From positions 864,001 to 928,000 of the forward strand of contig CP000070.1 in the NCBI GenBank assembly GCA_000002445.1: 64,000 nucleotides of DNA, written 5' to 3'. The stretch comes from Trypanosoma brucei (taxonomy: Eukaryota). The translations under genes and the position numbers were made by a program. Positions 1 through 15,122 of the stretch are shown one piece after another. The notes beneath the pieces were generated by a model. The model did not search any database and had not been told where the DNA came from. It was given only the letters and a program-made list of their open reading frames with translations. The stretch's first letter is position 1. Each line of letters opens with the position of its first letter.

Positions 1-1862
1 GCAGCTAGTTCATTTGTTTTCTCCTCTTGTAATCGGAGAAGATCATCCCTCTCAGACGAAACATCATGCAGTTTTGCGCCAAGTTCACAGAGTTCTTGTT
101 CTAGAGTATTCAGTTGTTGACGGCCTTCGTCGATTTGCTCCTTCAATAGATCTAGGCCATCCTTAGGTTCATTTAATTTCAACAGCAGCCGCTGCGTTTC
201 CCTGAATGGGTAATGCTGAAGCCGTTGAGCAATTTCCGAAGGATGAATGCTTGAAGGATGGGTGACATCAAATTCAACCACACGACCACTCGGAGTGAAC
301 GTTACATTACTCACACAATCCCTGTAGACACGACATGCATTAGCAGCATCAACAACAACAGCACAACGTAACTCTTCCGGTTTATTCTTCAGCAACTCAT
401 CTAACCTCTCACCTTGAAGTTGAACACACTGAGAACTTACCATGCAATCTCCCTCCATCGAAGCCATCCACCGAGAATCATGTTTCCGCAGCTCATCATT
501 TTCAGCACGAATCGCCTTCAGACTCTCTTGTAGCAAAGAAATTTTGGACTCAACGTTAGCAATCAGTTCATTAAGAGACTCAATTTCCTTTGCGTTATCA
601 GATTCGGCAAGACGAAGTTGCTCATTTTCCTCCTTAAGTTGTTGCAAATGTCGCTCCACCTCGCACACATGTTTCTTGAGCAAATCAAGCTCACGGGCTT
701 TTTCTTCTTCAGCACGGTGGAGCTCCTCGCTTTCTTTACTCAACTTTTTGATGTGTTGATCCTTTGCCGAACAGAGTTCATTTTGCGCATCAAGCTCAAT
801 CACCTTCTCTCTGACACACTCCCTCAATGCATCCACTTCCTCTTGCATCTTCTTCACCTTTTCCTCCATTTCCTCCAGATGACGACTCCGCAAGTCAAGT
901 TCACGTGCCTTTTCGGCCTCCGAATCCCGAAGCCCACCGTTTTCAGTGCGAAGTTCAGCAAGTTGCTCTTCCATCTCATTAAGTTTCTCATTCTGCACAT
1001 CAAGTTCACGTGCTTTCGCCTCATCAGAGCCGCGAAGTTGCTCATTTTGAACTAAAAATTCTTGAAGCTTACCGTCCAAGTCACCTAGTAAACCTTCCTG
1101 AACAACAAGATCATTCGACTTACACTCCAAAGTTCTCTTGAGATCACAATTTTCTTCCACTAAAGCATCTAATTGGTTCTCTACAGCAGTTAGCCGCGCC
1201 TGTTGTGCAGCTAGTTCATTTGTTTTCTCCTCTTGTAATCGGAGAAGATCATCCCTCTCAGACGAAACATCATGCAGTTTTGCGCCAAGTTCACAGAGTT
1301 CTTGTTCTAGAGTATTCAGTTGTTGACGGCCTTCGTCGATTTGCTCCTTCAATAGATCTAGGCCATCCTTAGGTTCATTTAATTTCAACAGCAGCCGCTG
1401 CGTTTCCCTGAATGGGTAATGCTGAAGCCGTTGAGCAATTTCCGAAGGATGAATGCTTGAAGGATGGGTGACATCAAATTCAACCACACGACCACTCGGA
1501 GTGAACGTTACATTACTCACACAATCCCTGTAGACACGACATGCATTAGCAGCATCAACAACAACAGCACAACGTAACTCTTCCGGTTTATTCTTCAGCA
1601 ACTCATCTAACCTCTCACCTTGAAGTTGAACACACTGAGAACTTACCATGCAATCTCCCTCCATCGAAGCCATCCACCGAGAATCATGTTTCCGCAGCTC
1701 ATCATTTTCAGCACGAATCGCCTTCAGACTCTCTTGTAGCAAAGAAATTTTGGACTCAACGTTAACAATCAGTTCATTAAGAGACTCAATTTCCTTTGCG
1801 TTATCAAAATCAGTAAGACGAAGTTGCTCATTTTCCTCCTTAAGTTGTTGCAAATGCCGTTC
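1..1862 (-). repeat. Higher-order direct repeat with a period of about 1208 bp. Copy 1..655 is about 98% identical to copy 1209..1862. The spacer at 656..1208 consists of degenerate 105-bp-family units.
   Basis: 'gcagctagttcatttgtttt' occurs at 1 and 1209. The plus-strand ORFs 442..759 and 1648..1872 start with the same 39 residues. The repeat may continue beyond the left edge. Confidence 0.85.
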
Positions 1863-4800
1863 CATCTCATGAAGTTTCTCATTCTGTACATCAAGTTCAC
1901 GTGCCTTGTCACCATCAGTATTGCGAAGCTCCTCATTCTCAGCGCGTAGTTCAGCAAGTTGCTCCTCCATCTCATGAAGTTTCTCATTCTGCACATCAAG
2001 TTCACGTGCCTTGTCACCATCAGTATTGCGAAGCTCCTCATTTTCCTCCTTAAGTTGTTGCAAATGCCGTTCCATCTCATGAAGTTTCTCATTCTGTACA
2101 TCAAGTTCACGTGCCTTGTCACCATCAGTATTGCGAAGCTCCTCATTCTCAGCGCGTAGTTCAGCAAGTTGCTCCTCCATCTCATGAAGTTTCTCATTCT
2201 GCACATCAAGTTCACGTGCCTTGTCACCATCAGTATTGCGAAGCTCCTCATTCTCAGCGCGTAGTTCAGCAAGTTGCTCTTCCATCTCATGAAGTTTCTC
2301 ATTCTGCACATCAAGTTCACGTGCCTTGTCCCCTTCAGTATTGCGAAGCTCCTCATTCTCAGCGCGTAGTTCAGCAAGTTGCTCCTCCATCTCATGAAGT
2401 TTCTCATTCTGCACATCAAGTTCACGTGCCTTGTCACCATCAGTATTGCGAAGCTCCTCATTCTCAGCGCGTAGTTCAGCAAGTTGCTCTTCCATCTCAT
2501 GAAGTTTCTCATTCTGCACATCAAGTTCACGTGCCTTGTCCCCTTCAGTATTGCGAAGCTCCTCATTCTCAGCGCGTAGTTCAGCAAGTTGCTCCTCCAT
2601 CTCATGAAGTTTCTCATTCTGCACATCAAGTTCACGTGCCTTGTCACCATCAGTATTGCGAAGCTCCTCATTCTCAGCGCGTAGTTCAGCAAGTTGCTCC
2701 TCCATCTCATGAAGTTTCTCATTCTGTACATCAAGTTCACGTGCCTTGTCACCATCAGTATTGCGAAGCTCCTCATTCTCAGCGCGTAGTTCAGCAAGTT
2801 GCTCTTCCATCTCATGAAGTTTCTCATTCTGCACATCAAGTTCACGTGCCTTGTCACCATCAGTATTGCGAAGCTCCTCATTCTCAGCGCGTAGTTCAGC
2901 AAGTTGCTCTTCCATCTCATGAAGTTTCTCATTCTGCACATCAAGTTCACGTGCCTTGTCACCATCAGTATTGCGAAGCTCCTCATTCTCAGCGCGTAGT
3001 TCAGCAAGTTGCTCTTCCATCTCATGAAGTTTCTCATTCTGTACATCAAGTTCACGTGCCTTGTCACCATCAGTATTGCGAAGCTCCTCATTTTCAGCGC
3101 GTAGTTCAGCAAGTTGCTCCTCCATCTCATGAAGTTTCTCATTCTGCACATCAAGTTCACGTGCCTTGTCACCTTCAGTATTGCGAAGCTCCTCATTTTC
3201 AGCGCGTAGTTCAGCAAGTTGCTCTTCCATCTCATGAAGTTTCTCATTCTGTACATCAAGTTCACGTGCCTTGTCACCATCAGTATTGCGAAGCTCCTCA
3301 TTTTCAGCGCGTAGTTCGGCAAGTTGCTCCTCCATCTCATGAAGTTTCTCATTCTGTACATCAAGTTCACGTGCCTTGTCACCATCAGTATTGCGAAGCT
3401 CCTCATTTTCAGCGCGTAGTTCGGCAAGTTGCTCCTCCATCTCATGAAGTTTCTCATTCTGTACATCAAGTTCACGTGCCTTGTCACCATCAGTATTGCG
3501 AAGCTCCTCATTTTCAGCGCGTAGTTCAGCAAGTTGCTCCTCCATCTCATGAAGTTTCTCATTCTGCACATCAAGTTCACGTGCCTTGTCCCCTTCAGTA
3601 TTGCGAAGCTCCTCATTCTCAGCGCGTAGTTCAGCAAGTTGCTCCTCCATCTCATGAAGTTTCTCATTCTGCACATCAAGTTCACGTGCCTTGTCCCCTT
3701 CAGTATTGCGAAGCTCCTCATTCTCAGTGCGTAGTTCAGCAAGTTGCTCCTCCATCTCATGAAGTTTCTCATTCTGCACATCAAGTTCACGTGCCTTGTC
3801 CCCTTCAGTATTGCGAAGCTCCTCATTTTCAGCGCGTAGTTCAGCAAGTTGCTCCTCCATCTCATGAAGTTTCTCATTCTGTACATCAAGTTCACGTGCC
3901 TTGTCACCATCAGTATTGCGAAGCTCCTCATTCTCAGCGCGTAGTTCAGCAAGTTGCTCTTCCATCTCATGAAGTTTCTCATTCTGCACATCAAGTTCAC
4001 GTGCCTTGTCCCCTTCAGTATTGCGAAGCTCCTCATTCTCTGCGCGTAGTTCAGCAAGTTGCTCCTCCATCTCATGAAGTTTCTCATTCTGTACATCAAG
4101 TTCACGTGCCTTGTCACCATCAGTATTGCGAAGCTCCTCATTCTCAGCGCGTAGTTCAGCAAGTTGCTCCTCCATCTCATGAAGTTTCTCATTCTGTACA
4201 TCAAGTTCACGTGCCTTGTCACCATCAGTATTGCGAAGCTCCTCATTCTCAGCGCGTAGTTCAGCAAGTTGCTCTTCCATCTCATGAAGTTTCTCATTCT
4301 GCACATCAAGTTCACGTGCCTTGTCCCCTTCAGTATTGCGAAGCTCCTCATTCTCAGCGCGTAGTTCGGCAAGTTGCTCCTCCATCTCATGAAGTTTCTC
4401 ATTCTGCACATCAAGTTCACGTGCCTTGTCCCCTTCAGTATTGCGAAGCTCCTCATTCTCAGCGCGTAGTTCAGCAAGTTGCTCCTCCATCTCATGAAGT
4501 TTCTCATTCTGCACATCAAGTTCACGTGCCTTGTCCCCTTCAGTATTGCGAAGCTCCTCATTTTCAGCGCGTAGTTCAGCAAGTTGTTCCTCCATCTCAT
4601 GAAGTTTCTCATTCTGCACATCAAGTTCACGTGCCTTGTCCCCTTCAGTATTGCGAAGCTCCTCATTTTCAGCGCGTAGTTCGGCAAGTTGCTCCTCCAT
4701 CTCATGAAGTTTCTCATTCTGCACATCAAGTTCACGTGCCTTGTCCCCTTCAGTATTGCGAAGCTCCTCATTCTCAGCGCGTAGTTCAGCAAGTTGCTCC

Positions 4801-7800
4801 TCCATCTCATGAAGTTTCTCATTCTGCACATCAAGTTCACGTGCCTTGTCACCATCAGTATTGCGAAGCTCCTCATTCTCAGCGCGTAGTTCAGCAAGTT
4901 GCTCCTCCATCTCATGAAGTTTCTCATTCTGCACATCAAGTTCACGTGCCTTGTCACCATCAGTATTGCGAAGCTCCTCATTTTCAGCGCGTAGTTCAGC
5001 AAGTTGCTCTTCCATCTCATGAACGTATCCCTGCAGCTGGACGTCACCTGATGCTGCTTCCCTAATGCGATGAAGCTCCTCATTTTCAGCGCGTAGTTCA
5101 GCAAGTTGCTCTTCCATCTCATGAACGTATCCCTGCAGCTCGACGTCACCTGATGCTGCTTCCCTAATGCGATGAAGCTCCTCATTTTCAGCGCGTAGTT
5201 CAGCAAGTTGCTCTTCCATCTCATGAACGTATCCCTGCAGCTCGACGTCACCTGATGCTGCTTCCCTAATGCGATGAAGCTCCTCATTTTCAGCGCGTAG
5301 TTCAGCAAGTTGCTCTTCCATCTCATGAACGTATCCCTGCAGCTCGACGTCACCTGAAGCTGCTTCCCTAATGCAATGAAGCTCTTCTTTTTCTATTAGT
5401 TGTCCTATTATCTGTTGATGTGGTCGCATGGGGCTGTGTTGTCCTTGTTTGTCTTCTTTTATTCGTACTGCTTTTCTTTCTTCGGGGGACTCTTCGCTTA
5501 ATGGTTCTTCGGTTTTTTGTTGCCTCTGACGATGTGCTCTTATGTTACATATATTATCTTTGTCGTGATCACGTAACGATTCGTCTTGTTCATGTAGCTT
5601 GCTGTGCTCTGTTGGGGTTTCTTTTCTGTACGTTTCCCTTGTCTGACATTCTTCTGAACTTTCGACGGATGTGTTGGTGCGGGTTGTTTCTTCTTCGCTA
5701 GTTTCTTTCTCTAAAAGATATCCGTCGTCTTTTGCGTCCTCGGTTTTTGTTTGAATAACTTCTTCTTTGTTTTCTTTTGTCCGGCGTAGTAAAGTGTTTT
5801 CGTCATTCAGTATGCGTAGCCTCTCCTCCAATGCTTTTATGTGCCCTCGTAGTTCCTCAATCTGAGCAATTTCCTCCCTGGTGGACATGAATAAATCACC
5901 ATCGTCCAGGGTTTCGTGCAAACTGTGAGAATAAGAAGGACTGTCTTGGTGATCTCCTTCCCTCCGGCCTCTATTGCTGTGTTGGTGAGGGTCACTTTCT
6001 CCTTGTTTCCCGATCGTTTGCATTAGTTGCAACACTGAAAGAAACTCTGCCCTCCTGACCCGTTGTGCGAGATCGTATTGTGACACGGAAGGAGGGTGAG
6101 AGACGGTGAACACGACAGATGTGTAGTACTCATTGAAACAAATATCGTCAATATCACTGATATCTACCTGGCAAGCACGAGCGGCATCCACAAGAACGGC
6201 TTTGTTGATATCTTCTCTATTGTTGATTATGTGCGTCCTCCATTCACGGAGATCGATATTCTTTTTGAGTGTGGATGTGACCCTCTCCCCATGTTGGTCT
6301 TTATGTCCCTCGATGATGTAGCCCTCTCTGCTCCCACCGCGAGTTGATGCATGCAGCGGAGACTCGTGCTCACTTACCCCCTGGTCCGTAGCGTCGTATC
6401 CTCTAATCTGATCACCGCTGCTTTCCCTTTGTAGTTCCTCTATTTCTTTGCGGTAGTGCTCCAGCTGACGAAGATCTTCGTCATGGCGCTGCTTAAGTTC
6501 GCTGATCTTGATTATCCCTTCTTGGCGCGTCTTCTCTGCCAGTTCACGCTGCTCGTTCAGGAGCTGCTGTAGCTCGTTGTTCACCCGCTGCGCTTCTTCA
6601 ATTTGTTGTAAGAGGTCACTGTTCTCTTCATGGGCAATATCAGTGGAATTTTGCCGTGGCTGAGAGTCCACTGCTTCGTCCTTCGGCTGCAAACCACCAC
6701 AGCTGAACCCCCCTTCCAACGCATGATGAAGAGCAACGTGGAGCAGCGGGCGGTGAATGGTAGCGCACCAGTCAATGAACTGCACATCCTTGTCCGTAAT
6801 GCTAACGACATCACCATTATCATCCGAAATACTCAAAACTGTCAGAATACAAGAACGGGAAACGTTGGTTGACGGCCTATCAGCAGAGGCAACGAACGTA
6901 AGGTACTGTTCGCTCTCATCTTCGCAAGCCCCATCGTCAACACTGCTTCCCTCTTCAGCACTGCAGTGCAACTTTGTTTCAATGCGCTTGATTTGCGTGT
7001 TCAGTTCCTTTATGTGAGCTATGTGGCTGGTAATATTCGCGTGCAGCTCGTCTGTGGACCGCTGAGAGTTTACGATCTCACATATGACGTGAAACATGCC
7101 CATCTGGGCAATGATCCAATCAAAAAGAAGAGGTAGCAGGGTGTCAGTACCGGACCTCGACCCGCCGGTCGTTTTCCCACTTAGTTGATTGCAGTAGAGG
7201 TGGACATCGGACATGTAGGCATCGTTGATGTCGTTGTAAAGTTCTACGCTCATATCAGTCATTGGGTCAAATTCCAGCAACCGCTGTATGTAGGTCGGAT
7301 CCCTCACAGCGGCCCGCAGGTCCTCCCACGACCATGAGGAATCAACAACCAAGTCCTCATTTAGAAGTGCGACAGTTGCCTCTAGCGCAAGCCGAAGTTG
7401 CACCGATGGAACCCGTGTGTTGAACACTTCGTGAAGTCGCACCTCCTCTACAGCCGCAATAGCACGACGAACGGCATCGGAAGACTCCTTTGCACGCCCC
7501 ATGGCCGCCTCATTGTTACGCCGAACAGCCGCCATCTCCTCGCGCAACGCCATAACACTCATGTGGCGGTGCCTCATCTCCTCCATTTTCCTCTCTTTGT
7601 CGATCCTTAGTGTGTTGAGAACAGCGGGATCGTGGCTGTTCTGTGGGAGCAACACACGCACCGTAGCGGAACGTGAATCCAGCTGCAACACGCGCCCCAG
7701 AAACCATCGCCGCTTGGAAGCTTTGCCTAATAATTCATAGGCCACAAGAGACCCCACGCACAAGGGGTCTTTCACACTATTAAGTAACGACTTCACACGG

Positions 7801-7892
7801 CTGTGGGTCGGACTAGCGCCTTTGTCCAACGCATGCAGAGAATCTGCTGTTTGTGACCACTCCTCATCGAAATGGCCTTCGGCGGTTGCCAT
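1..7892 (-). CDS. Giant repetitive coiled-coil protein. The N-terminus is complete (ATG at 7890-7892, revcomp) and the 3' end runs off the left window edge. Possibly the trypanosome flagellum-attachment-zone giant protein FAZ10.
   Basis: Translating the reverse strand by hand from the ATG at 7892 gives an uninterrupted frame (codon tops = 2 mod 3) down to position 1. An in-frame TAG lies just upstream of the ATG. The N-terminal ~830 aa are unique sequence. They are followed by 4 x 34-aa units (EELHRIREAASGDVELQGYVHEMEEQLAELRAEN), about 30 x 35-aa units (EELRNTDGDKARELDVQNEKLHEMEEQLAELRAEN) and degenerate heptad-rich coiled coil. This true frame is absent from the ORF track because it has no stop inside the window. 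The FAZ10 suggestion comes only from recalled gene order next to FPPS and the giant repetitive character. Confidence 0.8.
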   Translation of the reverse strand, partial: MATAEGHFDEEWSQTADSLHALDKGASPTHSRVKSLLNSVKDPLCVGSLVAYELLGKASKRRWFLGRVLQLDSRSATVRVLLPQNSHDPAVLNTLRIDKERKMEEMRHRHMSVMALREEMAAVRRNNEAAMGRAKESSDAVRRAIAAVEEVRLHEVFNTRVPSVQLRLALEATVALLNEDLVVDSSWSWEDLRAAVRDPTYIQRLLEFDPMTDMSVELYNDINDAYMSDVHLYCNQLSGKTTGGSRSGTDTLLPLLFDWIIAQMGMFHVICEIVNSQRSTDELHANITSHIAHIKELNTQIKRIETKLHCSAEEGSSVDDGACEDESEQYLTFVASADRPSTNVSRSCILTVLSISDDNGDVVSITDKDVQFIDWCATIHRPLLHVALHHALEGGFSCGGLQPKDEAVDSQPRQNSTDIAHEENSDLLQQIEEAQRVNNELQQLLNEQRELAEKTRQEGIIKISELKQRHDEDLRQLEHYRKEIEELQRESSGDQIRGYDATDQGVSEHESPLHASTRGGSREGYIIEGHKDQHGERVTSTLKKNIDLREWRTHIINNREDINKAVLVDAARACQVDISDIDDICFNEYYTSVVFTVSHPPSVSQYDLAQRVRRAEFLSVLQLMQTIGKQGESDPHQHSNRGRREGDHQDSPSYSHSLHETLDDGDLFMSTREEIAQIEELRGHIKALEERLRILNDENTLLRRTKENKEEVIQTKTEDAKDDGYLLEKETSEEETTRTNTSVESSEECQTRETYRKETPTEHSKLHEQDESLRDHDKDNICNIRAHRQRQQKTEEPLSEESPEERKAVRIKEDKQGQHSPMRPHQQIIGQLIEKEELHCIREAASGDVELQGYVHEMEEQLAELRAENEELHRIREAASGDVELQGYVHEMEEQLAELRAENEELHRIREAASGDVELQGYVHEMEEQLAELRAENEELHRIREAASGDVQLQGYVHEMEEQLAELRAENEELRNTDGDKARELDVQNEKLHEMEEQLAELRAENEELRNTDGDKARELDVQNEKLHEMEEQLAELRAENEELRNTEGDKARELDVQNEKLHEMEEQLAELRAENEELRNTEGDKARELDVQNEKLHEMEEQLAELRAENEELRNTEGDKARELDVQNEKLHEMEEQLAELRAENEELRNTEGDKARELDVQNEKLHEMEEQLAELRAENEELRNTEGDKARELDVQNEKLHEMEEQLAELRAENEELRNTDGDKARELDVQNEKLHEMEEQLAELRAENEELRNTDGDKARELDVQNEKLHEMEEQLAELRAENEELRNTEGDKARELDVQNEKLHEMEEQLAELRAENEELRNTDGDKARELDVQNEKLHEMEEQLAELRAENEELRNTEGDKARELDVQNEKLHEMEEQLAELRTENEELRNTEGDKARELDVQNEKLHEMEEQLAELRAENEELRNTEGDKARELDVQNEKLHEMEEQLAELRAENEELRNTDGDKARELDVQNEKLHEMEEQLAELRAENEELRNTDGDKARELDVQNEKLHEMEEQLAELRAENEELRNTDGDKARELDVQNEKLHEMEEQLAELRAENEELRNTEGDKARELDVQNEKLHEMEEQLAELRAENEELRNTDGDKARELDVQNEKLHEMEEQLAELRAENEELRNTDGDKARELDVQNEKLHEMEEQLAELRAENEELRNTDGDKARELDVQNEKLHEMEEQLAELRAENEELRNTDGDKARELDVQNEKLHEMEEQLAELRAENEELRNTDGDKARELDVQNEKLHEMEEQLAELRAENEELRNTEGDKARELDVQNEKLHEMEEQLAELRAENEELRNTDGDKARELDVQNEKLHEMEEQLAELRAENEELRNTEGDKARELDVQNEKLHEMEEQLAELRAENEELRNTDGDKARELDVQNEKLHEMEEQLAELRAENEELRNTDGDKARELDVQNEKLHEMERHLQQLKEENEELRNTDGDKARELDVQNEKLHEMEEQLAELRAENEELRNTDGDKARELDVQNEKLHEMERHLQQLKEENEQLRLTDFDNAKEIESLNELIVNVESKISLLQESLKAIRAENDELRKHDSRWMASMEGDCMVSSQCVQLQGERLDELLKNKPEELRCAVVVDAANACRVYRDCVSNVTFTPSGRVVEFDVTHPSSIHPSEIAQRLQHYPFRETQRLLLKLNEPKDGLDLLKEQIDEGRQQLNTLEQELCELGAKLHDVSSERDDLLRLQEEKTNELAAQQARLTAVENQLDALVEENCDLKRTLECKSNDLVVQEGLLGDLDGKLQEFLVQNEQLRGSDEAKARELDVQNEKLNEMEEQLAELRTENGGLRDSEAEKARELDLRSRHLEEMEEKVKKMQEEVDALRECVREKVIELDAQNELCSAKDQHIKKLSKESEELHRAEEEKARELDLLKKHVCEVERHLQQLKEENEQLRLAESDNAKEIESLNELIANVESKISLLQESLKAIRAENDELRKHDSRWMASMEGDCMVSSQCVQLQGERLDELLKNKPEELRCAVVVDAANACRVYRDCVSNVTFTPSGRVVEFDVTHPSSIHPSEIAQRLQHYPFRETQRLLLKLNEPKDGLDLLKEQIDEGRQQLNTLEQELCELGAKLHDVSSERDDLLRLQEEKTNELA
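1846..5000 (-). repeat. Tandem array of about 30 near-identical 105-bp (35-aa) coding repeats.
   Basis: 'tcagcaagtt' recurs at 2161, 2266 and 2581, giving a period of 105. Units differ only at a few positions: caccatcagt vs ccccttcagt (D/E), ctcagcgc vs ttcagcgc, tgcacatc vs tgtacatc, cctccat vs cttccat. These variants are arranged in blocks. Confidence 0.95.
5000..5395 (-). repeat. Tandem array of 4 x 102-bp (34-aa) coding repeats that are related to, but distinct from, the 105-bp family.
   Basis: 'acgtcacc' recurs at 5041, 5143, 5245 and 5347, giving a period of 102. Confidence 0.9.
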
Positions 7893-9065
7893 TGTAGGAA
7901 AGAGAACACGGAACACTAGCTAAAGCACCCAAAAGTACCTGGTCCCAAAACCCTGGTTGACACTTTGCTACTCTCCCCCTTCCCTCAATCGCTCTACTAC
8001 ACCTCGCTCACAAGTTCTACTGACTTCGCACTCAGCGGAGTTCGGATTCTTCCAAGACACGGCCAAATCCTCTCCTCCTCCTCCTCCTGTTTTTGCCCTT
8101 TTTTTTTCGTTCTATTACAAAAATTAAACAAAACTTTTGTCCTCCCCAACACTCACCCTCGCGGTGGCAAACACCAGTAGCAGTGGTGGTGTCGCCTCGT
8201 CACACTCGAAATGAACTACCGACTTGGGTGTGTTAACTCAGCCTTTCCACGGGGTTAGATCGCTCTTCAACTTTTCTGGCCCCTGTAGGTGCGGTTCTGA
8301 CCGTTCTTCGGGAATACTATAATGTACAACGATGCAAGCAGAGGAAACAGGAGAAATGAAATGATGGACACGACCCACTTGTAAAATCGACTAGTGCGTG
8401 GGTCTAAAGATAACACACAAATGCACAGTTATTTGTTTCTTACAAAGAAATCCGCACACTCAACGATACTTTTTCGACCTCTTCCTGCCGCTTGCAGTCT
8501 GACGCTCTTGCAACGATCCGCAAAAGCACAAGGCCAACACCAAACAGATACGATGCGATATGATATTATACGTATACCCACGTAATATCCAGAAAGTAGC
8601 GCATCTGCATCCTCCCCCCCCCCTCGTTGCAGCCACCTGTTTCTACGTGCGGGCACAATAAAGGAAGAAGGTCGCTTCCTTCTCACTATCAAGTGGAGGT
8701 CAAAGGAAAGACCACCCCTCTGGTCTGAGGCTTAAAATGAAAACAACGATGTGTCGGCAACTTCTGCAGTTCATTCAGGAGAATGGCACAACGTCGCATG
8801 TACGACCACCGTCGCCACCAGCAGCGGCACCGACAGAAGTTGATAGTTATAATTTTTTCCCCCTTTTAAAGTTCTGTACCGCGTAATCACCCGATGCCTC
8901 CTCCCTTCCTGTCGTTTGCTCGATGGGGAAGATAAATGTGAACGACAAATGTGGCAGTCACTTGTGAAGGGTCAAAATCAAAACATACCAATACACCACC
9001 AACTACGTCCTCAGCCTGACACCGCACCTTCCCACGCACGCACTCGCATGGGGCACCACACGCTC

Positions 9066-10847
9066 TCACATCTCGGATGGATGGTGCGTGACGAACACGT
9101 GCAGTGGGTCAAAGTCCTCGAGCAAGGGATTAAACCCACTTCGCGTAGTGAAGATAGATGTTTTATCACCCCCGAATGTTTTCCAAAACTGAGGGTGCGA
9201 CATGCTTGAAACCTCTTTATATGCACCGCATATATTGCGGTACACCGCCTTAAGAAGGTCGAAATCTGTAGGAAAGCAAATGTCGATCATTCCTGCGTTG
9301 CCATGCAGGGAATCCGCAGGACGACGGAGGTAAATGTCCTTGGCAATACGCGTCTTGCTTTGCAGCACCGGTCCATTCACGCCTGGGAGGCCTTGACGCA
9401 CCGACCCCCAATCTACAAGGAAAAGATGATGACGGGGAAAATACGTTGCACAGGTCTCAAGGAAGAGCATCGAGACTGTTGGCAGCCACAAGGTGCGGAA
9501 CGGGCTGTGCATCCACATCATCTTTGTAATAACTACCCGCAGAGGGTCGTACATGTTTGGCTCGATGCTCGTAAAGGGAGGTGGATCGATGTTGTCACGT
9601 CCACCGGTGAGGCACAGTACCTTGAGGCTATGAAACGACTCCTCCTGCATCCAGCGTGCATAGCGCAAGTAGCGAAGTATGACCGGATCCTTCACTGAAA
9701 AATACCTCTCGTGAGCAGTGGAAAGATTGTCATGTTGCTGGAAGTGAAACCATTGCTCATTACATACTCCATCGGCACTCAGCACGACACAATCGTGCGG
9801 CATACCAGAGAGTAACTCCACGCCGAACACGACGCAGCGCCTACGCTCCACTTCCCTCCAGTTCAAAATGGAGATGTTGTGAATTTTGACATGGTGGTAG
9901 TGCATAATAAGACGGTTACGAAGCACCTGCACGAGCTGAGGGTTTATTTCCACCACATGATACTCACACTGTTCGTACACAGAAGGGAAGTGCTCGCTCA
10001 GGTAGTCCAGAACACTAACAGCAAGTGCCCCTGAGCCCGCCCCAATATCGTACACAACCAGCGGGTCCCGAGGATCGAACTTCGCTCTCATCATGGTTAC
10101 CAGGTACTCTGCAATCACCCAACCGTAGTGTGGTTGAAAGAGTTGGGTGGGTGTGACACATGAGGGTGTAGAATCGTGAATCTTCCCCACGTAGCGCTCA
10201 TAGTCCTGCTGGTTGCGCAGGCTACCAAACGGAATGGGGTCAAAGTAGCCGGTGGTCATGAGTTGGCGGTATTTGCGATACAGTTTTGGGTAGTATCCCC
10301 ATTTCTTATGATACAAGGCAAAATGAATGAAGTCTCGCATAATCAACTCCGTTCCAAGTGACTCGTGGTCGGCGACAGCCCCACCTTCAAAAACAAGAAG
10401 GTCCTCGAATAGTTTTTTTTGTCGCGTCACTCGTCGCTCCTCCTCCTCAGCTGCAAGCTCGTGAAGGCGTGATTCTGACACAGCCTCATTACACGATGAC
10501 AATATGTAAGGCATCCCACTACCTACCGATGGAAGCACCGGGGTCGAGCTCATAGCAGCAGCATGGGGCCCCACGACGGCACCTGATGCAGTAGTCATAC
10601 TGCAATCAACAATGTTGCCCTGCGAGACACAAGAAGGGGCGCCATCGCAGCTATTATTACCATCATTTCCCTGATTGCTGTAATGCGGGGGCAGGAGAGC
10701 GGCGCTGCCGTCGCCTGGCGTACTGAAGGGACTGCGGCTTCCGGCAGCACCAGCAGCGGGAAAGGAATACCATCGTCTCCCCGGGGATGATGGGATGGAG
10801 CGGGGCGAAACCCGAAGGGTACGCCCACCGAGTGGGAAGTACCTCAT
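9066..10847 (-). CDS. SAM-dependent methyltransferase of the DUF185/MidA family (NDUFAF7-like). The N-terminal ~110 aa are low-complexity, so the true start may be an internal Met.
   Basis: ELIMRDFIHFALYHKKWGYYP (MidA N-terminal motif), VVYDIGAGSGALAVSVLDYL (glycine-rich SAM-binding loop) and YHVVEINPQLVQVLRNRL. Placement is by recalled family motifs only. Confidence 0.6.
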   Translation of the reverse strand: MRYFPLGGRTLRVSPRSIPSSPGRRWYSFPAAGAAGSRSPFSTPGDGSAALLPPHYSNQGNDGNNSCDGAPSCVSQGNIVDCSMTTASGAVVGPHAAAMSSTPVLPSVGSGMPYILSSCNEAVSESRLHELAAEEEERRVTRQKKLFEDLLVFEGGAVADHESLGTELIMRDFIHFALYHKKWGYYPKLYRKYRQLMTTGYFDPIPFGSLRNQQDYERYVGKIHDSTPSCVTPTQLFQPHYGWVIAEYLVTMMRAKFDPRDPLVVYDIGAGSGALAVSVLDYLSEHFPSVYEQCEYHVVEINPQLVQVLRNRLIMHYHHVKIHNISILNWREVERRRCVVFGVELLSGMPHDCVVLSADGVCNEQWFHFQQHDNLSTAHERYFSVKDPVILRYLRYARWMQEESFHSLKVLCLTGGRDNIDPPPFTSIEPNMYDPLRVVITKMMWMHSPFRTLWLPTVSMLFLETCATYFPRHHLFLVDWGSVRQGLPGVNGPVLQSKTRIAKDIYLRRPADSLHGNAGMIDICFPTDFDLLKAVYRNICGAYKEVSSMSHPQFWKTFGGDKTSIFTTRSGFNPLLEDFDPLHVFVTHHPSEM

Positions 10848-11280
10848 CTGAGTTGAGCGAATCCACAGAAGAAAAAAAATGGAGGAAGCAAATTAAAGAA
10901 ATACGAAAACAAAATAAGAAAGAGCAGGAAAAGTGAAAAAATATTAGAGTCGCGAGCACGCACCTTCATACACAAATATACATGCATGTACAGGGACGTA
11001 AATTGCTCAAAGGGTTCCTCTCTCAAATCGTGCAGCAACACGCAAAAACAGAGTAAAAGGAAAGAAACAAAGACGCAGCGGCACCGCAGCAACACTCGCT
11101 AAATACGGTTTTCAACGCCGAAAAACAGAAAAACAAGAGCAAACATAAAGCATTACGTATGTATATACACGCATGGTCTGCGCGAGAAAATGCACATACC
11201 TTGGTTATGCCGCCTCAATTGGATGGCCCCATACGCATGAACACGAGACCACATAACAACTCGCAGTGGTACACGAATGT

Positions 11281-12468
11281 TCAAGCAATAGGTTCGTTAT
11301 CATGTGTTTCTCTCTCTAACCGCACACCGCCTTTATGGTCACTTGTAGTTTCCCGTATCTCGCATGTCTCCCCCGGCTGGCTTGTGTCTCTACTCGGGTA
11401 GGCACCATCAGTCGCATTGTCCCCAAGGTTGTGGACCCCGATATCGGGAACGGCACCACTACTTCCTGCCGGATTCTTTTTATATCGGCGAAAGTCACGA
11501 CGCTTCTGGATTGCTAAGCACCCGCATGGCCCTTTACTTCTATCCGTGGCGACGAGTGGCTTTGACTGCTTCGATAACTTTTCACGCCTTTTCGCACGTT
11601 TGCTCAGCACGTGTTCGTACGTGGTTCGGCGGGTTAAGCAGAGATTGATATGAAACACTATGAGATTTCCCAATGCGGCCAGTCCAGCAGCGGAGAGCGC
11701 AAGTGTGAGAAAAAGAAAAACCATGTACGTCACGTAGCTACTGACTCCAAAACGCTCCTTGAGGCGGTCACTGAAGTCCTGCTTGTGTATAAATGCATTA
11801 GAGATGACGTAAATGCCAACGCCGAACACAAGGGCGATAGAACACCATGCTGTGCCCATGAAGCAGCAGAACATGACATAATTCCCCTCCCCTACACACG
11901 TGTTCAGCCAACGACAGTGGTGGTCGAAGCCGGGGACACACTTGTCACACACACTGCAGTGTTTGCTGCCCAAAATAACAAAGCGTCTGCAAAAGACGCA
12001 AGGCTCAGTACCAGGCGGGGCGGCTTCCTGCACAAGTTCCTCTTGTGCATAGCGTGGAACGTCCGTGGCAAAGACAATTGGGTCCTCAATCCGACTACAG
12101 GAAAGCGCTAATTTCAGCGCCGCTGTAGTGAATGTTAAGAAGCCAGAAATGGGGGAAATTATGCAAACCAGCAAACTATCGAGCATCGGAACGTGCAGTG
12201 TGAAATGCAGCGTAGCAAGCGTGACAATGACAGACCAAGCTATTACCTGAAGGGCGTCTAAAGGACACTCAAACCCACTGCGCCGCGGCCGTACAGGGCC
12301 CCCATAAATGTCAATCCACTGCCCAACAGGAGGCTCACAGCAACAGCTGCACATTAAAAGATTACAAGGACACACCGAACTGTGAACCTTCCAATTTGTT
12401 GAAGGGAAACAAGAAGCAACAAACCAGCAGTAACAGTAGAAGATGCTACGGCAAATCCGCCCCCACAA
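11281..12468 (-). CDS. DHHC-type zinc-finger palmitoyl acyltransferase. The start codon is uncertain.
   Basis: CSVCDKCVPGFDHHCRWLNTCVGEGNY is a canonical DHHC cysteine-rich domain. It is flanked by predicted transmembrane helices (LQVIAWSVIVTLATLHF, LLVCIISPISGFLTFTTAAL, AWCSIALVFGVGIYVI). Confidence 0.85.
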   Translation of the reverse strand: MWGRICRSIFYCYCWFVASCFPSTNWKVHSSVCPCNLLMCSCCCEPPVGQWIDIYGGPVRPRRSGFECPLDALQVIAWSVIVTLATLHFTLHVPMLDSLLVCIISPISGFLTFTTAALKLALSCSRIEDPIVFATDVPRYAQEELVQEAAPPGTEPCVFCRRFVILGSKHCSVCDKCVPGFDHHCRWLNTCVGEGNYVMFCCFMGTAWCSIALVFGVGIYVISNAFIHKQDFSDRLKERFGVSSYVTYMVFLFLTLALSAAGLAALGNLIVFHINLCLTRRTTYEHVLSKRAKRREKLSKQSKPLVATDRSKGPCGCLAIQKRRDFRRYKKNPAGSSGAVPDIGVHNLGDNATDGAYPSRDTSQPGETCEIRETTSDHKGGVRLERETHDNEPIA

Positions 12469-13006
12469 TAATTTACGTCTACTCCCCTCCGGTCCCGCTC
12501 CCTGCTGTTAAGTGTGCGTGTATGTTTGTGTCGCACTACAGCGTGTCCCCTTTTCCGATCCTGCTACTTTCTTCCACTCGTCCTCAAACAGTTCCTTAGG
12601 GTTTAGGTGTACCTCCCCTCACCTTATCCAACTAAACGTCGGGCAATCCAGAGGGACAGTGCTGAAGCAACGAGCAGATGCGGGGCCGATGCAATGGCAG
12701 CGCCACGTGTATCCCCCACCCTACTGGTCCTTAACCCCACCTCCCCACCGGCCCCTCCGTGTTATCAAAGAACTTTACTTCTTGCCGTTGTTTTTCCTCT
12801 TATTTCGCTCTCTGAGCAACTACTTTTTTTTTGCGCTTTCCGCTTTCCTCACTCTATTCCTCTCCCCCACCCCTTTCCCCAATGGAGCTTTTGATGCGTA
12901 CTTATGCGGGTGAAGAACCCACCGTATATGCGCACACACACAAACTGATGACACCGTGATGAGGAGCTGATGGTCAAAAATTGGCGATGAAGTCCCAACA
13001 GTAACA

Positions 13007-13032
13007 ATATATATATATATATATATATATAT
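13007..13032. repeat. (AT)13 intergenic microsatellite.
   Basis: Seen directly in the sequence. Confidence 0.95.
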
Positions 13033-14018
13033 GTGGCAATGGAAACAATTAAAGACTGTTACCACACGATCAGTGCCCAGACCAAACGCCCTAGACACTG
13101 TCTTCACTCACCTGTGGAGTGTAAAACCAAGAGGCCTAAGGAAAGAAACAGCGACAGTAGAAACAAAAACAGAAGGGGGCGATGAAAGTAATGACAGACA
13201 TTTGTACAAGTTATTCCCCAACATTAAGGGCACATCGCTGCAAATAGGAGTGAACAATTTTGCGGAAACAGAACATGAAGAAACGGACAAACAATGTTAA
13301 ACAAGGGGGAAAGCAACAACCACCAGGAAGTTAGAAAAAAAATTCAGAAAAGATGAAGACAGAGGCTTCCCAAGACGCCATCAACGAATGGCAGACACTT
13401 CTCTCCCATGTAAATTACAAACATGAGTAGAACGTCGCACGGTTACAGTTGGGTGAGAATTGCGTGCGAACAAGGATGGGTGGTAACGGGAGGGAAGTTA
13501 GCGATGACGAATTGCACTCCACACAAAAATAAGCGGGAAAGAGAAAATTAAAACGCCGACAACCAAAGGCTAAGTGGTAGCTCACACTTACGAATGACCC
13601 CTTTGGGCCCCCCGGGCCAAGCATAACCCATCGAGACGGCAAGAACCATATAATGAAAAAAAAAGAAAACGTAACCGAAGAAAAAAGTCGATAACCCTAC
13701 TTCACACGCAGGAAATTCCAACTCGGTAAAGAGCACAGACACACACAAGCACCGGCCACCACTCCATTGTACCGCACGAAACCTTTGTGCCTTCACCGCA
13801 CCGAGCCACCCGCACACAACACAATTTGTTCATTCACCCCGTCACTCTCTAATGCTTACACATAGGCGGTTGAGTCCCCTCTCCACACCTGCTGCCAACA
13901 ATGTGCCTCCTACCCTGCACTTTGACAATCGATAGATTTTCCCCCACTTACACTCCCCCCTTCACCTGTGTTTGCATCAACTGCAGGATACGCATTACTA
14001 CCATCGAGTCGCTGTCCA

Positions 14019-15122
14019 TCACTTCTGGCGCTTGTAAGTCTTTCCCCACAGAGTTTCTACGCTGGCAGCAAATCCTGGTGAGCAAAGCCTCAGTTTCTCA
14101 ATAAGCTCCTTCACCTGCTCTGCCACCGCAGCCTCGTAGGCTACATAATCCTCCTGCAGATCCGCTTCCTCATAGAGCCGCCTCACTGTGGCCACCTTCT
14201 CCGAGTCTCCACTGCCGTAGTTTGCTTTGAACTCAGCAATCTGCGCACTGCTCGCTTTTGCGAGAAATGTTACGGCCAACCAAGAACACTTTGCATCCTG
14301 AATGTCAGTTCCAACTTTTCCTAGCCGCTCGGGTGGTGTAAAACAATCCATGACGTCGTCCTGCACCTGAAAGTATTCGCCCATAAGCATGGCCAACTCT
14401 TCCGTAACGCCCATGTCAACGGTGGGAAGAGCCTCACTAACAATAAGCCCCATAACTAGTGGTAGAAGGTAAGTGTAATAAGCTGTCTTGTACTTCACAA
14501 TCCGCTTGTAATTGGAAAGGGTGAACTCCGCGAAATCTGTCGTAGTGGGCTGCGATACGTCGGGATCGAGTTTGTTTGAGTCAAACATTGACGTCACATC
14601 GTATAACTGCCCGACAGCTGTGGTGTAATCCACTCTGTTGAAACGACAGAGCAAATCCTGCAAAAAAGGACGGTCTGCAAAGAAGTGCATCGCCATCATG
14701 TGAGTCCACGACTTCAATAGCAGACCGTCATTTATAGCACACTGCACCGTGACGCCTGGGTGACGGTACCAGCATGGCTTACCACGCCGCGTGACGCTGT
14801 TGTCCATAATGTCATCTTCCACCAAGTAATGGGCCTGAAGGAACTCAATCATCCAACCACAAACACACGCATCGTGTAGAACACGTTTCCGCCTTGCCCC
14901 ATCGTCTTTTTCACCGTTGTTGTTTGGGCTTAGGGAAAGAAGGGACTCGGCCACATCGATCACCGTCAGGCCACGGTTGTATTTGCCGCCCAAGCATGTG
15001 GTGTCCATCATTTTCCGGAGGTATCTGACTCGATTCGGATCCATGTCGAACTTAAGTTTCAGTTCTTCGAGCAGAAACATCTGAATCTCATCATATACCT
15101 GCATAAACATTTGCATTACCAT
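14019..15122 (-). CDS. FPPS: Farnesyl pyrophosphate synthase (farnesyl diphosphate synthase).
   Basis: First aspartate-rich motif LVEDDIMDNSVTRRGKPCWY, second motif QVQDDVMD, and the GKVGTDIQDAKCSW box. The 367-aa length and N-terminus MxMQMFMQVYDEIQMFLLEEL match my memory of Trypanosoma brucei FPPS. Confidence 0.95.
   Translation of the reverse strand: MVMQMFMQVYDEIQMFLLEELKLKFDMDPNRVRYLRKMMDTTCLGGKYNRGLTVIDVAESLLSLSPNNNGEKDDGARRKRVLHDACVCGWMIEFLQAHYLVEDDIMDNSVTRRGKPCWYRHPGVTVQCAINDGLLLKSWTHMMAMHFFADRPFLQDLLCRFNRVDYTTAVGQLYDVTSMFDSNKLDPDVSQPTTTDFAEFTLSNYKRIVKYKTAYYTYLLPLVMGLIVSEALPTVDMGVTEELAMLMGEYFQVQDDVMDCFTPPERLGKVGTDIQDAKCSWLAVTFLAKASSAQIAEFKANYGSGDSEKVATVRRLYEEADLQEDYVAYEAAVAEQVKELIEKLRLCSPGFAASVETLWGKTYKRQK

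What the first reader, a model, noticed from the sequence alone, without database searches (positions are those of the whole stretch)
1..7892. Giant coiled-coil gene with three tiers of tandem repeat homogenisation; copy number probably unreliable
Within one reading frame the gene carries three layers of repeats. (a) About 30 head-to-tail 105-bp units are more than 97% identical and differ only at about six mostly synonymous sites. These variants (D/E codon, ctc/ttc, gca/gta) occur in blocks rather than at random, which points to recent unequal crossing-over or gene conversion. (b) A separate set of four 102-bp units has a related but distinct consensus. (c) Degenerate relatives of the same unit fill 656-1208, and these are embedded in a 1208-bp higher-order repeat (1..655 matches 1209..1862 at about 98%) that probably continues past the left edge. 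Such arrays collapse or expand in assemblies, so the real protein may be much larger than it appears. The context (a gene of at least 8 kb, with a unique ~830-aa N-terminus, lying immediately upstream of the MidA, DHHC and FPPS genes) fits the trypanosome FAZ giant protein FAZ10. If so, the repeat number sets the length of a cytoskeletal ruler, and differences between strains would be of biological interest.
Basis: partly seen in the sequence, partly recalled or inferred. Interest (0 to 1): 0.6.

Follow-up and report, generated by a model that had tools for sequence, protein, structure and literature searches.

The report
Trypanosome FAZ10 giant repeat gene
This is the first 60% of the already characterised Trypanosoma brucei flagellum-attachment protein FAZ10; its near-identical 35-residue repeats are real, and the suspicion that they are under-counted in assemblies is already published, so the finding is correct but ordinary.

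Summary
The repeats are real. One minus-strand frame is open across 3..7919, with the ATG at 7892, and runs off the left edge. It holds 4 x 102-bp units, 30 x 105-bp units, seven degenerate in-register units, and a 1206-bp higher-order duplication whose first 558 bp are identical.

The gene is T. brucei FAZ10 (Tb927.7.3330). All 17 residues that a FAZ10 preprint cites by number match the window protein counted from Met 7892. Pfam finds three FAZ1_cons domains. The MidA-type, DHHC and FPPS genes lie upstream.

Published work already describes the 35-residue repeats, the 502 kDa predicted versus ~2000 kDa observed mass, possible mis-assembly of the repeats, and possible allelic variation in repeat number. 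The finding is therefore already known.

Variant "blocks" are not significant (p about 0.06-0.07); only a two-unit alternation in units 23-30 is (p 0.0012). The "ruler" idea has no support.

New side points:
- The 35-residue array keeps one heptad register over 1050 residues.
- Repeat periods in relatives are mostly multiples of seven.
- The "motif-less" N-terminus holds a dynein-stalk-like hairpin with a microtubule-binding-type domain and no motor.

Copy number cannot be tested here.

The parts
3..7892 (-). FAZ10 coding sequence, residues 1-2630 of a published 4334. It runs off the left edge, so about 5.1 kb of the ORF is outside the window.
   Evidence: Open frame and ATG. 17/17 numbered residues match published FAZ10. 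ORF length 13,005 bp from PMC5358337.
7641..7748 (-). Small three-stranded beta unit of the N-terminal module (aa ~49-84). The 'SH3-like' label is my impression only.
   Evidence: AlphaFold2 model, strands 25-60 of the modelled segment. Conserved G/V/Y/W columns in alignment A3. No fold search was done on it alone.
6954..7628 (-). Dynein-stalk-like hairpin: long helix (aa 89-146), small helical globular domain of microtubule-binding-domain type (aa 150-240), long return helix (aa 248-313).
   Evidence: Family profile against PDB sequences hits dynein MTBD constructs 6kjn/6kjo/6kio at E ~2e-8 and heavy chains at 5e-7. Pfam PF12777 matches 3 of 12 relatives. AF2 pLDDT 78. The Foldseek top 32 hits are all dynein stalk/MTBD.
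6021..6278 (-). FAZ1_cons domain copy 1 (aa ~539-624), inside the 'unique' N-terminal region.
   Evidence: Pfam PF23398 reports 3 stretches. Alignment A1 with the central copy, 25% identity.
4980..5387 (-). Four 34-aa (102-bp) units, EELH(R/C)IREAASGDV(E/Q)LQGYVHEMEEQLAELRAEN. The second half is shared with the 35-aa unit.
   Evidence: There is no coherent heptad phase across these units.
1830..4979 (-). Thirty 35-aa (105-bp) units, EELRNT(D/E)GDKARELDVQNEKLHEMEEQLAELRAEN. Units 23-30 alternate as 210-bp dimers. Units 28 and 30 end in ERHLQQLKEEN.
   Evidence: A single a/d heptad register runs over all 1050 residues.
165..1685 (-). Published 'central region' D2070-P2576: a globular domain, a ~300-aa coiled coil, then an identical globular domain.
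   Evidence: Residue numbering. The preprint shows a parallel dimer by SEC-MALS/CD and AF2.
1389..1646 (-). FAZ1_cons domain copy 2 (aa 2083-2168).
   Evidence: Pfam best stretch, 209 bits for the whole protein. AF2 pLDDT 88.5.
519..1253 (-). Seven degenerate 35-aa units in strict register (aa 2214-2458). They form the central coiled coil.
   Evidence: Consensus scan; unit starts are exactly 35 aa apart.
183..440 (-). FAZ1_cons domain copy 3 (aa 2485-2570), identical in sequence to copy 2.
   Evidence: 1206-bp offset with 100% identity over 1..558. Pfam.
1..655 (-). Distal copy of the 1206-bp higher-order repeat, cut by the window edge. Its partner is 1207..1861.
9066..15122 (-). Upstream neighbours on the same strand: Methyltransf_28/MidA-type (9066-10847), DHHC (11281-12468), FPPS (14019-15122).
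   Evidence: Pfam. FPPS matched to solved FPPS chains.

Best explanation
The window opens inside the Trypanosoma brucei gene for FAZ10 (Tb927.7.3330), a giant cytoskeletal protein of the flagellum attachment zone. It holds codons 1-2630 of 4334 on the minus strand.

Shown here, the protein is modular:
- an N-terminal module with a dynein-stalk-like helical hairpin;
- a FAZ1_cons globular domain;
- four 34-residue and thirty 35-residue near-identical repeats;
- a central coiled coil built from seven decayed copies of the same unit, bracketed by two identical FAZ1_cons domains.

Inferred for the repeats: because 35 = 5 x 7, the array keeps one unbroken heptad register. It would therefore form a long, very acidic coiled-coil rod of about 156 nm for the 30 units. 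This would continue the parallel dimer that others have shown experimentally for the central region.

Inferred for the DNA: near-identity, almost purely synonymous variation, the two-unit alternation at the array's distal end and the 558-bp perfect duplicate are the signature of ongoing unequal crossing-over or gene conversion. Purifying selection acts on the peptide and on unit length.

Inferred for function, from published RNAi and immuno-EM: the rod acts as a tether or spacer. It holds the paraflagellar rod and flagellar side to the FAZ junctional complexes, possibly anchored to microtubules by the N-terminal hairpin. It does not act as a length ruler for the FAZ.

The repeat number in this assembly equals the reference numbering and may under-count the true number.
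For: Identity:
- 17/17 numbered residues match; chance for six of them is about 1.5e-7.
- 35-aa repeats, ORF size and domain plan are as published.
- FAZ1_cons scores 209 bits against a cutoff of 27.5, in 3 stretches.
- Neighbouring genes match.

Repeats.

Heptad register: strongly hydrophobic residues fall in only two of seven phases across 1050 residues.

Selection on unit length: 9 of 11 relatives with clear arrays have periods that are multiples of 7 (14, 21, 28, 35, 42, 63); binomial p is 1e-6, or 2e-4 counting distinct values only.

Selection on the peptide: 7 of 9 variable sites are synonymous.

Recent exchange: lag-2 similarity p = 0.0012; 558 bp are identical while the next stretch falls to 50-80%.

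Function, from the literature:
- The central region is a parallel coiled-coil dimer.
- The C-terminus labels periodic junctional complexes ~122 nm apart.
- RNAi widens the PFR-FAZ gap from 47 to 61 nm.

N-terminal hairpin.
Against: - No direct alignment to the Tb927.7.3330 record was possible, because the protein collections searched do not hold it.
- The Tb927.7.3330 RNAi primers from PMC3313915 are absent from the window. They presumably lie in the 5.1 kb beyond the left edge, but this was not verified.
- FPPS differs at 6 of 367 residues from the deposited sequences, so the strain is unsettled.
- IUPred, as quoted in the preprint, calls the repeat regions about 97% disordered. Each unit has a Gly/Asp-rich stretch (NTDGDK) with polar residues at core positions. 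A continuous rigid rod is therefore not assured.
- The four 34-aa units break the register.
- Adjacent-unit clustering of variants is not significant.
- The window's own N-terminal sequence gives no Pfam MT hit; only the family profile and the model do.
- Microtubule binding is untested.
Confidence: 0.85

Rival explanations
1. The array is collapsed in this assembly. The real FAZ10 alleles carry many more 105-bp units (several-fold), which explains the ~2000 kDa band and its doublet.
For: - 502 kDa predicted against ~2000 kDa observed, with both the antibody and a Myc tag, and the authors' own suggestion of mis-assembly and allelic repeat variation.
- Units are 97% identical, several are fully identical, and exact matches run up to 365 bp at a two-unit offset. 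Such arrays are hard to assemble.
- Every close relative in a 1.84-billion-protein library stops at or before the array, at 822 aa or less.
- A short-read contig leaves the locus 43 bp before the first repeat.
Against: - Closing a 1500 kDa gap needs about 361 extra units, or about 38 kb. That is a very large omission.
- The protein is 34% acidic with pI about 4.4, and such proteins run slow on SDS gels (general knowledge).
- The central region forms a stable dimer.
- Sizing against titin and nebulin markers is coarse.
- Nothing in the window itself can count copies.
Confidence: 0.3
2. The copy number is essentially right. The excess apparent mass comes from anomalous migration of a very acidic coiled coil, an SDS-resistant dimer and/or modification.
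For: - Acidic composition and pI.
- Dimerisation of the central region.
- The authors list post-translational modification as an alternative.
- The window's numbering is identical to that used for a construct PCR-cloned from strain 427 with the expected 66 kDa product. At least the central region is therefore assembled correctly.
Against: - A four-fold shift is larger than acidity alone usually gives (general knowledge).
- ClpGM6, another repeat protein, shows the same kind of excess.
- The 427 reference may have been built on the 927 scaffold (own recollection, unverified). If so, equal numbering is weak evidence for the array itself.
Confidence: 0.35
3. Repeat number sets the length of a cytoskeletal ruler. 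It would do so for the FAZ itself or for the ~122-nm spacing of the junctional complexes, so strain differences in copy number would change cell geometry.
For: - The 30-unit rod would be about 156 nm, the same order as the ~122-nm staple spacing.
- Unit lengths in the family are held to heptad multiples. This argues that rod geometry matters.
Against: - The 'ruler' of the literature is the FAZ as a whole, modulated by protein composition and expression.
- The FAZ and flagellum still form without FAZ10.
- No data link copy number to any dimension.
- The full protein, with the second array, would be far longer than 122 nm.
Confidence: 0.1
4. The gene is not FAZ10 but a paralogue of the FAZ1/FAZ8/FAZ10 family, or another giant coiled-coil gene.
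For: - FAZ1-like proteins share both the N-terminal module and FAZ1_cons.
- No direct database record of FAZ10 was retrieved.
Against: - 17/17 numbered residues match.
- The repeats are 35-aa units, not the 14-aa FAZ1 repeats seen in P0013.
- The gene lies three genes from FPPS Tb927.7.3360.
Confidence: 0.02

Closest known systems
FAZ10 (Tb927.7.3330 / Tb427.07.3330), Trypanosoma brucei; Moreira et al. 2017 (PMC5358337) and preprint 10.64898/2026.05.05.722045
   Same: This is the gene itself: same residue numbering, 35-aa near-identical repeats, central coiled coil between two globular domains, and chromosome-7 context next to FPPS.
   Different: Nothing differs in kind. Details I did not find stated in the passages of those papers that I read:
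- the four 34-aa units;
- the two-unit alternation at the array end;
- the exact 1206-bp duplication with 558 identical bases;
- the strict 35-aa register of the central coil;
- FAZ1_cons copy 1 and the dynein-stalk-like hairpin in the N-terminal region, which Moreira et al. describe as having no recognisable motifs.
FAZ1 (Tb927.4.3740) and FAZ8, the other proteins listed with the PFAMB506/FAZ1_cons domain
   Same: For FAZ1-like proteins, tested here: they share the N-terminal module, FAZ1_cons domain(s), and a long tandem array with a period that is a multiple of seven.
   Different: P0013, which I take to be FAZ1 or a close relative from its repeat (own recollection), has 14-aa units and is much smaller. 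FAZ8 was not examined here; only the shared PFAMB506 domain is on record. FAZ10 has 34/35-aa units, three FAZ1_cons copies in the window, and an internal higher-order duplication.
Dynein heavy-chain stalk with microtubule-binding domain (Pfam PF12777; PDB 5ayh, 3wuq, 3err, 6rzb)
   Same: Antiparallel helical hairpin with a small helical domain at the tip. It is detectable by family-profile sequence search (E ~2e-8) and by fold search (E 9e-7, probability 1.0).
   Different: There are no AAA+ modules anywhere in the 2630 residues, so it is not a motor. The window sequence alone does not reach any Pfam MT score. An earlier Phyre2-based reading as 'dynein motor domains' that pull the FAZ (PMC7394968) is not supported by this anatomy.
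ClpGM6 and FLAM3, giant repeat proteins of the FAZ flagellar side
   Same: Both are giant FAZ proteins. ClpGM6 also has an apparent mass far above the annotated one: ~1500 kDa against 660 kDa predicted.
   Different: They have unrelated domains (calpain-like, Clu) and lie on the flagellar side rather than the intracellular side. Neither was examined here.
Molecular-ruler giants such as nebulin and titin (general knowledge)
   Same: Very large modular repeat proteins whose length could in principle measure a structure. Titin and nebulin served as gel markers for FAZ10.
   Different: No evidence exists that FAZ10 length sets any dimension. Its repeats are coiled-coil heptad multiples, not actin-binding or Ig/Fn modules.

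Membership tests
FAZ10 (Tb927.7.3330) - identity | Residue-by-residue collinearity with the published protein | tested here: met
   17 of 17 residues cited with numbers in the preprint coincide when numbering from Met 7892.
FAZ10 (Tb927.7.3330) - identity | Nearly identical 35-aa repeats within a coiled-coil domain after an ~830-aa N-terminal region | tested here: met
   30 units, of which 28 average 97.4% nucleotide identity. The publication gives 52 repeats over two domains; the second domain is off-window.
FAZ10 (Tb927.7.3330) - identity | Central region D2070-P2576: a coiled coil flanked by two like globular domains | tested here: met
   Two identical FAZ1_cons domains lie 402 aa apart with seven degenerate units between them.
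FAZ10 (Tb927.7.3330) - identity | Chromosome-7 position three gene numbers from FPPS (Tb927.7.3360) | tested here: met
   MidA-type, DHHC and FPPS ORFs lie upstream on the same strand. FPPS is 361/367 identical to the closest solved FPPS chains; that these are T. brucei is from memory. The gene ID comes from PMC6299225. The IDs of the two intervening genes are inferred, not looked up.
FAZ10 (Tb927.7.3330) - identity | Full length 4334 aa, with the second repeat domain and the C-terminal region used for the antibody | not testable with these tools
   1704 residues lie beyond the left edge of the window. No collection searched holds the full protein.
FAZ10 (Tb927.7.3330) - identity | Localisation to the FAZ intracellular domain; RNAi phenotype | not testable with these tools
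   Experimental; taken from PMC5358337.
Pfam PF23398 FAZ1_cons | Score above the gathering threshold | tested here: met
   209.2 bits against a cutoff of 27.5, in three stretches.
Coiled coil (heptad repeat) | Hydrophobic residues confined to a/d phases, coherent over the array | tested here: met
   In the 35-aa array, L/I/V/M/F occupy two of seven phases at 60% each; one further phase is at 20% and the other four at 0%. The 3.5-residue power is 20.1, against 0.5 for N-terminal residues 1-420. The 34-aa units show no coherence. Dimer formation of the array itself was not tested.
Dynein heavy chain (motor) | AAA+ ring modules | tested here: not met
   No AAA or dynein motor family appears in the Pfam scan of all 2630 residues at E <= 0.1.
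Dynein stalk / microtubule-binding domain (PF12777 MT; fold of 5ayh, 3err, 6rzb) | Sequence match to the stalk-MTBD family | tested here: inconclusive
   The window sequence alone gives no Pfam MT hit at E <= 1 (member 1). A profile of 12 family members gives E ~2e-8 to MTBD constructs and 5e-7 to heavy chains. Pfam MT matches 3 of 12 relatives, best E 2.6e-6.
Dynein stalk / microtubule-binding domain (PF12777 MT; fold of 5ayh, 3err, 6rzb) | Helix - small helical domain - helix hairpin fold | tested here: met
   AF2 model pLDDT 78. The Foldseek top 32 hits are all dynein stalk/MTBD: 5ayh at E 8.8e-7, and 6rzb_C with TM 0.73 normalised to the target. This rests on a predicted model, not a solved one.
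Dynein stalk / microtubule-binding domain (PF12777 MT; fold of 5ayh, 3err, 6rzb) | Binds microtubules | not testable with these tools
   Needs co-sedimentation or cryo-EM.
SEA / ferredoxin-like alpha-beta sandwich (for FAZ1_cons) | Fold match clearly above background | tested here: inconclusive
   [not shown]

The most novel reading that the evidence does not exclude
FAZ10, and with it FAZ1-type proteins, would be motor-less descendants of a dynein stalk. The N-terminal hairpin would be a working microtubule-binding domain that plants the protein on the microtubule quartet or on subpellicular microtubules. The heptad-phased repeat rod would then set how far the C-terminus reaches to the membrane junctions. 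The true unit number, possibly far above the 30 + ~20 of the reference and different between alleles, would tune that reach.
Probability: 0.25. Interest if true: 0.6.

Novelty: already known. Interest (0 to 1): 0.2.

Why it matters
For the finding as given, little changes. The gene, its repeats, its giant apparent size and the suspicion of collapsed repeats have been in print since 2017.

The practical value is a caution. Any annotation, proteomic mass or RNAi/tagging design at this locus rests on an array whose length has not been verified. A simple test is available: a 4.8-kb NsiI fragment, or spanning long reads.

The side observations could help people working on the FAZ:
- The repeat family is held to heptad multiples, which argues that rod geometry is under selection.
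- The supposedly featureless N-terminus carries a dynein-stalk-type hairpin without a motor. This gives a concrete, testable anchor point on microtubules and argues against the published idea that FAZ10 is itself a motor.

Tried and rejected
1. The Tb927.7.3330 RNAi primers from the NUP-1 paper (PMC3313915) were searched in the window with up to 2 mismatches. There was no match. They are probably in the off-window 3' part, so this gave no confirmation.
2. Word-indexed protein searches with the FAZ1_cons domain and with the central coiled coil found nothing. The aim was to see past the left edge. The N-terminal search found only two truncated relatives.
3. The exhaustive representative search found no full-length FAZ10, so lengths across assemblies could not be compared.
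4. A literature search for long-read resolution of the FAZ10 array returned irrelevant papers when loosely set. None of the 27 papers naming FAZ10 from 2017 on appeared from its title or abstract to resolve the array.
5. The AlphaFold database library was not available for fold search.
6. The claim that variants sit in blocks was tested by permutation and runs tests and is not significant.
7. The long ORFs in other frames of the array (+ strand 2054..5062; minus frame 2, 1772..5392) were considered. I rejected them as by-products of a stop-free repeat unit.
8. tRNA and Rfam scans of the window found nothing.
10. A search for 'mL100' literature found nothing relevant.

Full report
**What is in the sequence**

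One frame is free of stops across 3..7919 (2639 codons). Its first ATG is at 7892, and it runs off the left edge of the window. Two other long stop-free stretches sit within the array: + strand 2054..5062, and minus frame 2 at 1772..5392. I read both as side effects of a repeat unit that happens to lack stops in those frames.

**Tier a: the 105-bp units**

Tandem Repeats Finder reports one array at 1861..5329, period 105, 33.1 copies, 96% matches, score 5832. Read in the coding register, there are exactly thirty 105-bp units at 4979..1830, encoding EELRNT(D/E)GDKARELDVQNEKLHEMEEQLAELRAEN.

- Twenty-eight units are canonical, with mean pairwise identity 97.4% and minimum 94.3%.
- Units 28 and 30 carry the same 18-nt-different tail, ERHLQQLKEEN.
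- The canonical units vary at nine sites, six common and three singletons. Seven are synonymous third-position changes; D/E and A/T are the only replacements.

The statement that variants sit in blocks is not well supported. The summed Hamming distance between neighbouring units is only marginally lower than in permutations (p = 0.06-0.07). Of six common sites, only one passes a runs test (p = 0.015, uncorrected). What stands out is similarity at a lag of two units (p = 0.0012). It is produced by units 23-30, which alternate as [consensus][E-type] twice and then [consensus][variant tail] twice. This is a 210-bp dimer repeat, with exact self-matches up to 365 bp at that offset.

**Tier b: the 102-bp units**

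Four 102-bp units lie at 5387..4980. They encode EELH(R/C)IREAASGDV(E/Q)LQGYVHEMEEQLAELRAEN, whose second half equals that of the 35-residue unit.

**Tier c: the higher-order repeat**

- The offset is 1206 bp (402 codons, in frame), not 1208.
- Positions 1..558 are 100% identical to 1207..1764.
- Positions 1..655 against 1207..1861 differ at 7 positions (98.9%).
- Beyond that, identity falls to 50-80%.
- Between the two copies, seven degenerate units start exactly 35 residues apart (aa 2214, 2249 ... 2424; nt 519..1253). They match the consensus at 10-28 of 35 positions.

**What it is**

The gene is Trypanosoma brucei FAZ10.

- Pfam finds the FAZ1_cons domain (PF23398) at 209 bits against a cutoff of 27.5, in three stretches.
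- A 2026 preprint defines that central region as D2070-P2576 and names fifteen further residues by number. When the window protein is numbered from Met 7892, all seventeen are the stated residue.
- This also shows that the window has exactly the repeat count of the reference numbering.
[quoted passage not shown] The two globular domains are the identical FAZ1_cons copies 402 residues apart, and the coil between them is the run of degenerate units.
- The upstream ORFs on the same strand are a Methyltransf_28 (MidA-type) protein, a DHHC palmitoyltransferase and a polyprenyl synthase.
- The polyprenyl synthase is 361/367 identical to the closest solved farnesyl pyrophosphate synthase chains (5ael and 2ewg groups). 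I recall these as T. brucei FPPS; the tool output does not name the organism. FPPS is Tb927.7.3360.
- Every ORF of 200 residues or more that does not overlap a longer one is on the minus strand. This is expected for a trypanosomatid polycistronic unit.

I could not align directly to the database record, because the protein collections available do not hold it. The Tb927.7.3330 RNAi primers from another paper are not in the window. They presumably lie in the 5.1 kb beyond the edge.

**How it most likely works: the DNA**

This part is inferred. Four features are what unequal crossing-over and gene conversion produce in a tandem array under purifying selection on the product:

- near-identity between units;
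- variation that is almost only synonymous;
- a local two-unit periodicity;
- a 558-bp perfect duplicate next to much more diverged sequence.

**How it most likely works: the protein**

In the 35-residue array, the strongly hydrophobic residues occupy only two of the seven heptad phases, spaced as a and d. That register is unbroken across all 1050 residues because 35 = 5 x 7. The 34-residue units have no such coherence.

Relatives found by an exhaustive search include a FAZ1-like protein with 14-residue repeats. Their tandem periods are 35, 42, 21, 32, 21, 28, 14, 63, 28, 14 and 41. Nine of eleven are multiples of seven (binomial p = 1e-6; 2e-4 counting distinct values only). Unit sequence is free to change, but unit length is held to heptad multiples. 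This argues that a continuous coiled coil is the selected property.

At 0.1485 nm per residue (textbook value), the 30 units would span about 156 nm. The preprint measured or modelled 41-51 nm for the central coil and showed that it is a dimer.

There are caveats. Each unit has a Gly/Asp-rich stretch with polar residues at core positions. Disorder predictors quoted in the preprint score the repeats as about 97% disordered. The rod may therefore be segmented or elastic.

Published experiments place the C-terminus at periodic junctional complexes about 122 nm apart. [quoted passage not shown] A tether or spacer is therefore the best-supported role.

The 'cellular ruler' of the literature is the whole FAZ, not this protein. 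I found nothing that ties repeat number to any dimension.

**Copy number**

Moreira et al. found ~2000 kDa against 502 kDa predicted, with both an antibody and a Myc tag. They proposed that the repeats were mis-assembled and that the doublet might reflect allelic variation in repeat number.

Nothing in a single window can count copies. The indirect signs are trivial:

- Every close relative in the 1.84-billion-protein library ends at or before the array.
- One short-read contig (L001) matches 8107..5430 at 98.9% and then jumps to an unrelated cyclin-like locus 43 bp before the first repeat.

Against a purely genomic explanation:

- Closing the 1500-kDa gap would need about 361 more units, or about 38 kb.
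- The protein is 34% acidic with pI about 4.4.
- It dimerises.

I rate several-fold collapse at about 0.3 and an essentially correct count at about 0.35. The rest of the probability lies on smaller errors. The test is simple. NsiI does not cut the array and should release a 4806-bp fragment (1546..6352) if the assembly is right. Spanning long reads would give the same answer.

**A side result outside the finding**

The N-terminal region was described as lacking recognisable motifs. It contains a module of about 300 residues that is shared with FAZ1-like and other relatives.

- A profile of twelve such modules hits dynein microtubule-binding-domain constructs (6kjn, 6kjo, 6kio) at E about 2e-8.
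- It hits many dynein heavy chains, always in the stalk, at E down to 5e-7.
- Pfam's dynein stalk family (PF12777) matches three of the twelve.
- An AlphaFold2 model (pLDDT 78) shows a small beta unit, a 58-residue helix, a cluster of short helices and a 66-residue return helix.
- Its top 32 Foldseek matches in the PDB are all dynein stalks or microtubule-binding domains: 5ayh at E 8.8e-7, and 6rzb_C with TM 0.73 normalised to the target.
- There are no AAA+ modules in the 2630 residues.

An earlier paper noted Phyre2 'dynein stalk and motor' predictions in FAZ1, FAZ2 and FAZ10 and built a pulling-motor model on them. The anatomy here supports a passive stalk-type hairpin, not a motor. Whether it binds microtubules is untested.

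**Comparison and verdict**

This is FAZ10 itself. The features that define it and can be tested in the window are all met; total length, the C-terminus and localisation cannot be tested here. It works like other long coiled-coil tethers. It is not a dynein, because the motor test was not met.

The finding is correct in substance and its main interpretation is right, but it restates published knowledge. I rate it already known, with interest 0.2. The most novel reading still open is a microtubule-anchored spacer that derives from a dynein stalk and has a tunable repeat rod. It deserves a moderate score only if experiments confirm binding and geometry.

Noticed in passing
window 6954-7748 (minus), FAZ10 aa ~49-313: The 'motif-less' N-terminus holds a small beta unit followed by a dynein-stalk-like helix / microtubule-binding-type domain / helix hairpin. 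There are no AAA+ motor modules. The module is shared with FAZ1-like relatives.
   Followed up: yes
PDB chain 7aih_BG (also 7am2, 7ane), against alignment A2 of the N-terminal module: A 1347-residue chain deposited as 'mL100' matches the FAZ1/FAZ10 N-terminal module at E 1.6e-74 over ~300 residues. From memory, these entries are kinetoplastid mitoribosome structures. A FAZ1-family-like protein named as a mitoribosomal protein is odd. A literature search found nothing useful.
   Followed up: partly
L001 (Logan contig ERR7929163_2863) 1-4475, against window 8107-5430: This short-read contig follows the FAZ10 N-terminal region at 98.9% identity. At window 5430, 43 bp before the first repeat, it switches to an unrelated locus encoding a cyclin-like protein on the other strand, and the ORF ends there. 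It could be a chimeric contig or a real truncation or rearrangement.
   Followed up: partly
window 1830-2669 (units 23-30 of the array): The distal end of the array is a 210-bp two-unit repeat. The variant tail of units 28 and 30 (ERHLQQLKEEN) is the same sequence that opens each copy of the 1206-bp higher-order repeat. That boundary therefore occurs at least three times.
   Followed up: yes
relatives P0003-P0023: Tandem-repeat periods in FAZ10/FAZ1-family relatives are 14, 21, 28, 35, 42 and 63 residues in 9 of 11 cases; the exceptions are 32 and 41. Unit length is held to heptad multiples while unit sequence differs.
   Followed up: yes
[not shown]
   Followed up: partly
window 14019-15122 (minus): The FPPS protein differs at 6 of 367 residues from the closest deposited FPPS sequences. 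The window's strain or subspecies may therefore differ from the one used for crystallography.
   Followed up: no
window 52851-56576 (minus), repeats at 53820-54487: A second repeat-bearing ORF of 1241 aa has no Pfam hit. It carries a 192-bp unit x 2.1 (92% matches) and an 81-bp unit x 2.4.
   Followed up: no
window 2054-5062 (+) and 1772-5392 (minus, frame 2): Two further stop-free stretches of about 1000-1200 codons lie inside the array. They exist only because the repeat unit lacks stops in those frames, and a gene caller could mistake them for genes.
   Followed up: yes
window 7900-64000: All non-nested ORFs of 200 aa or more are on the minus strand. They include MORN-repeat, MAM33, SacI-homology, Vac14 and WD40/EML-like proteins. 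This fits one trypanosomatid polycistronic unit. No tRNA or Rfam family was found.
   Followed up: partly
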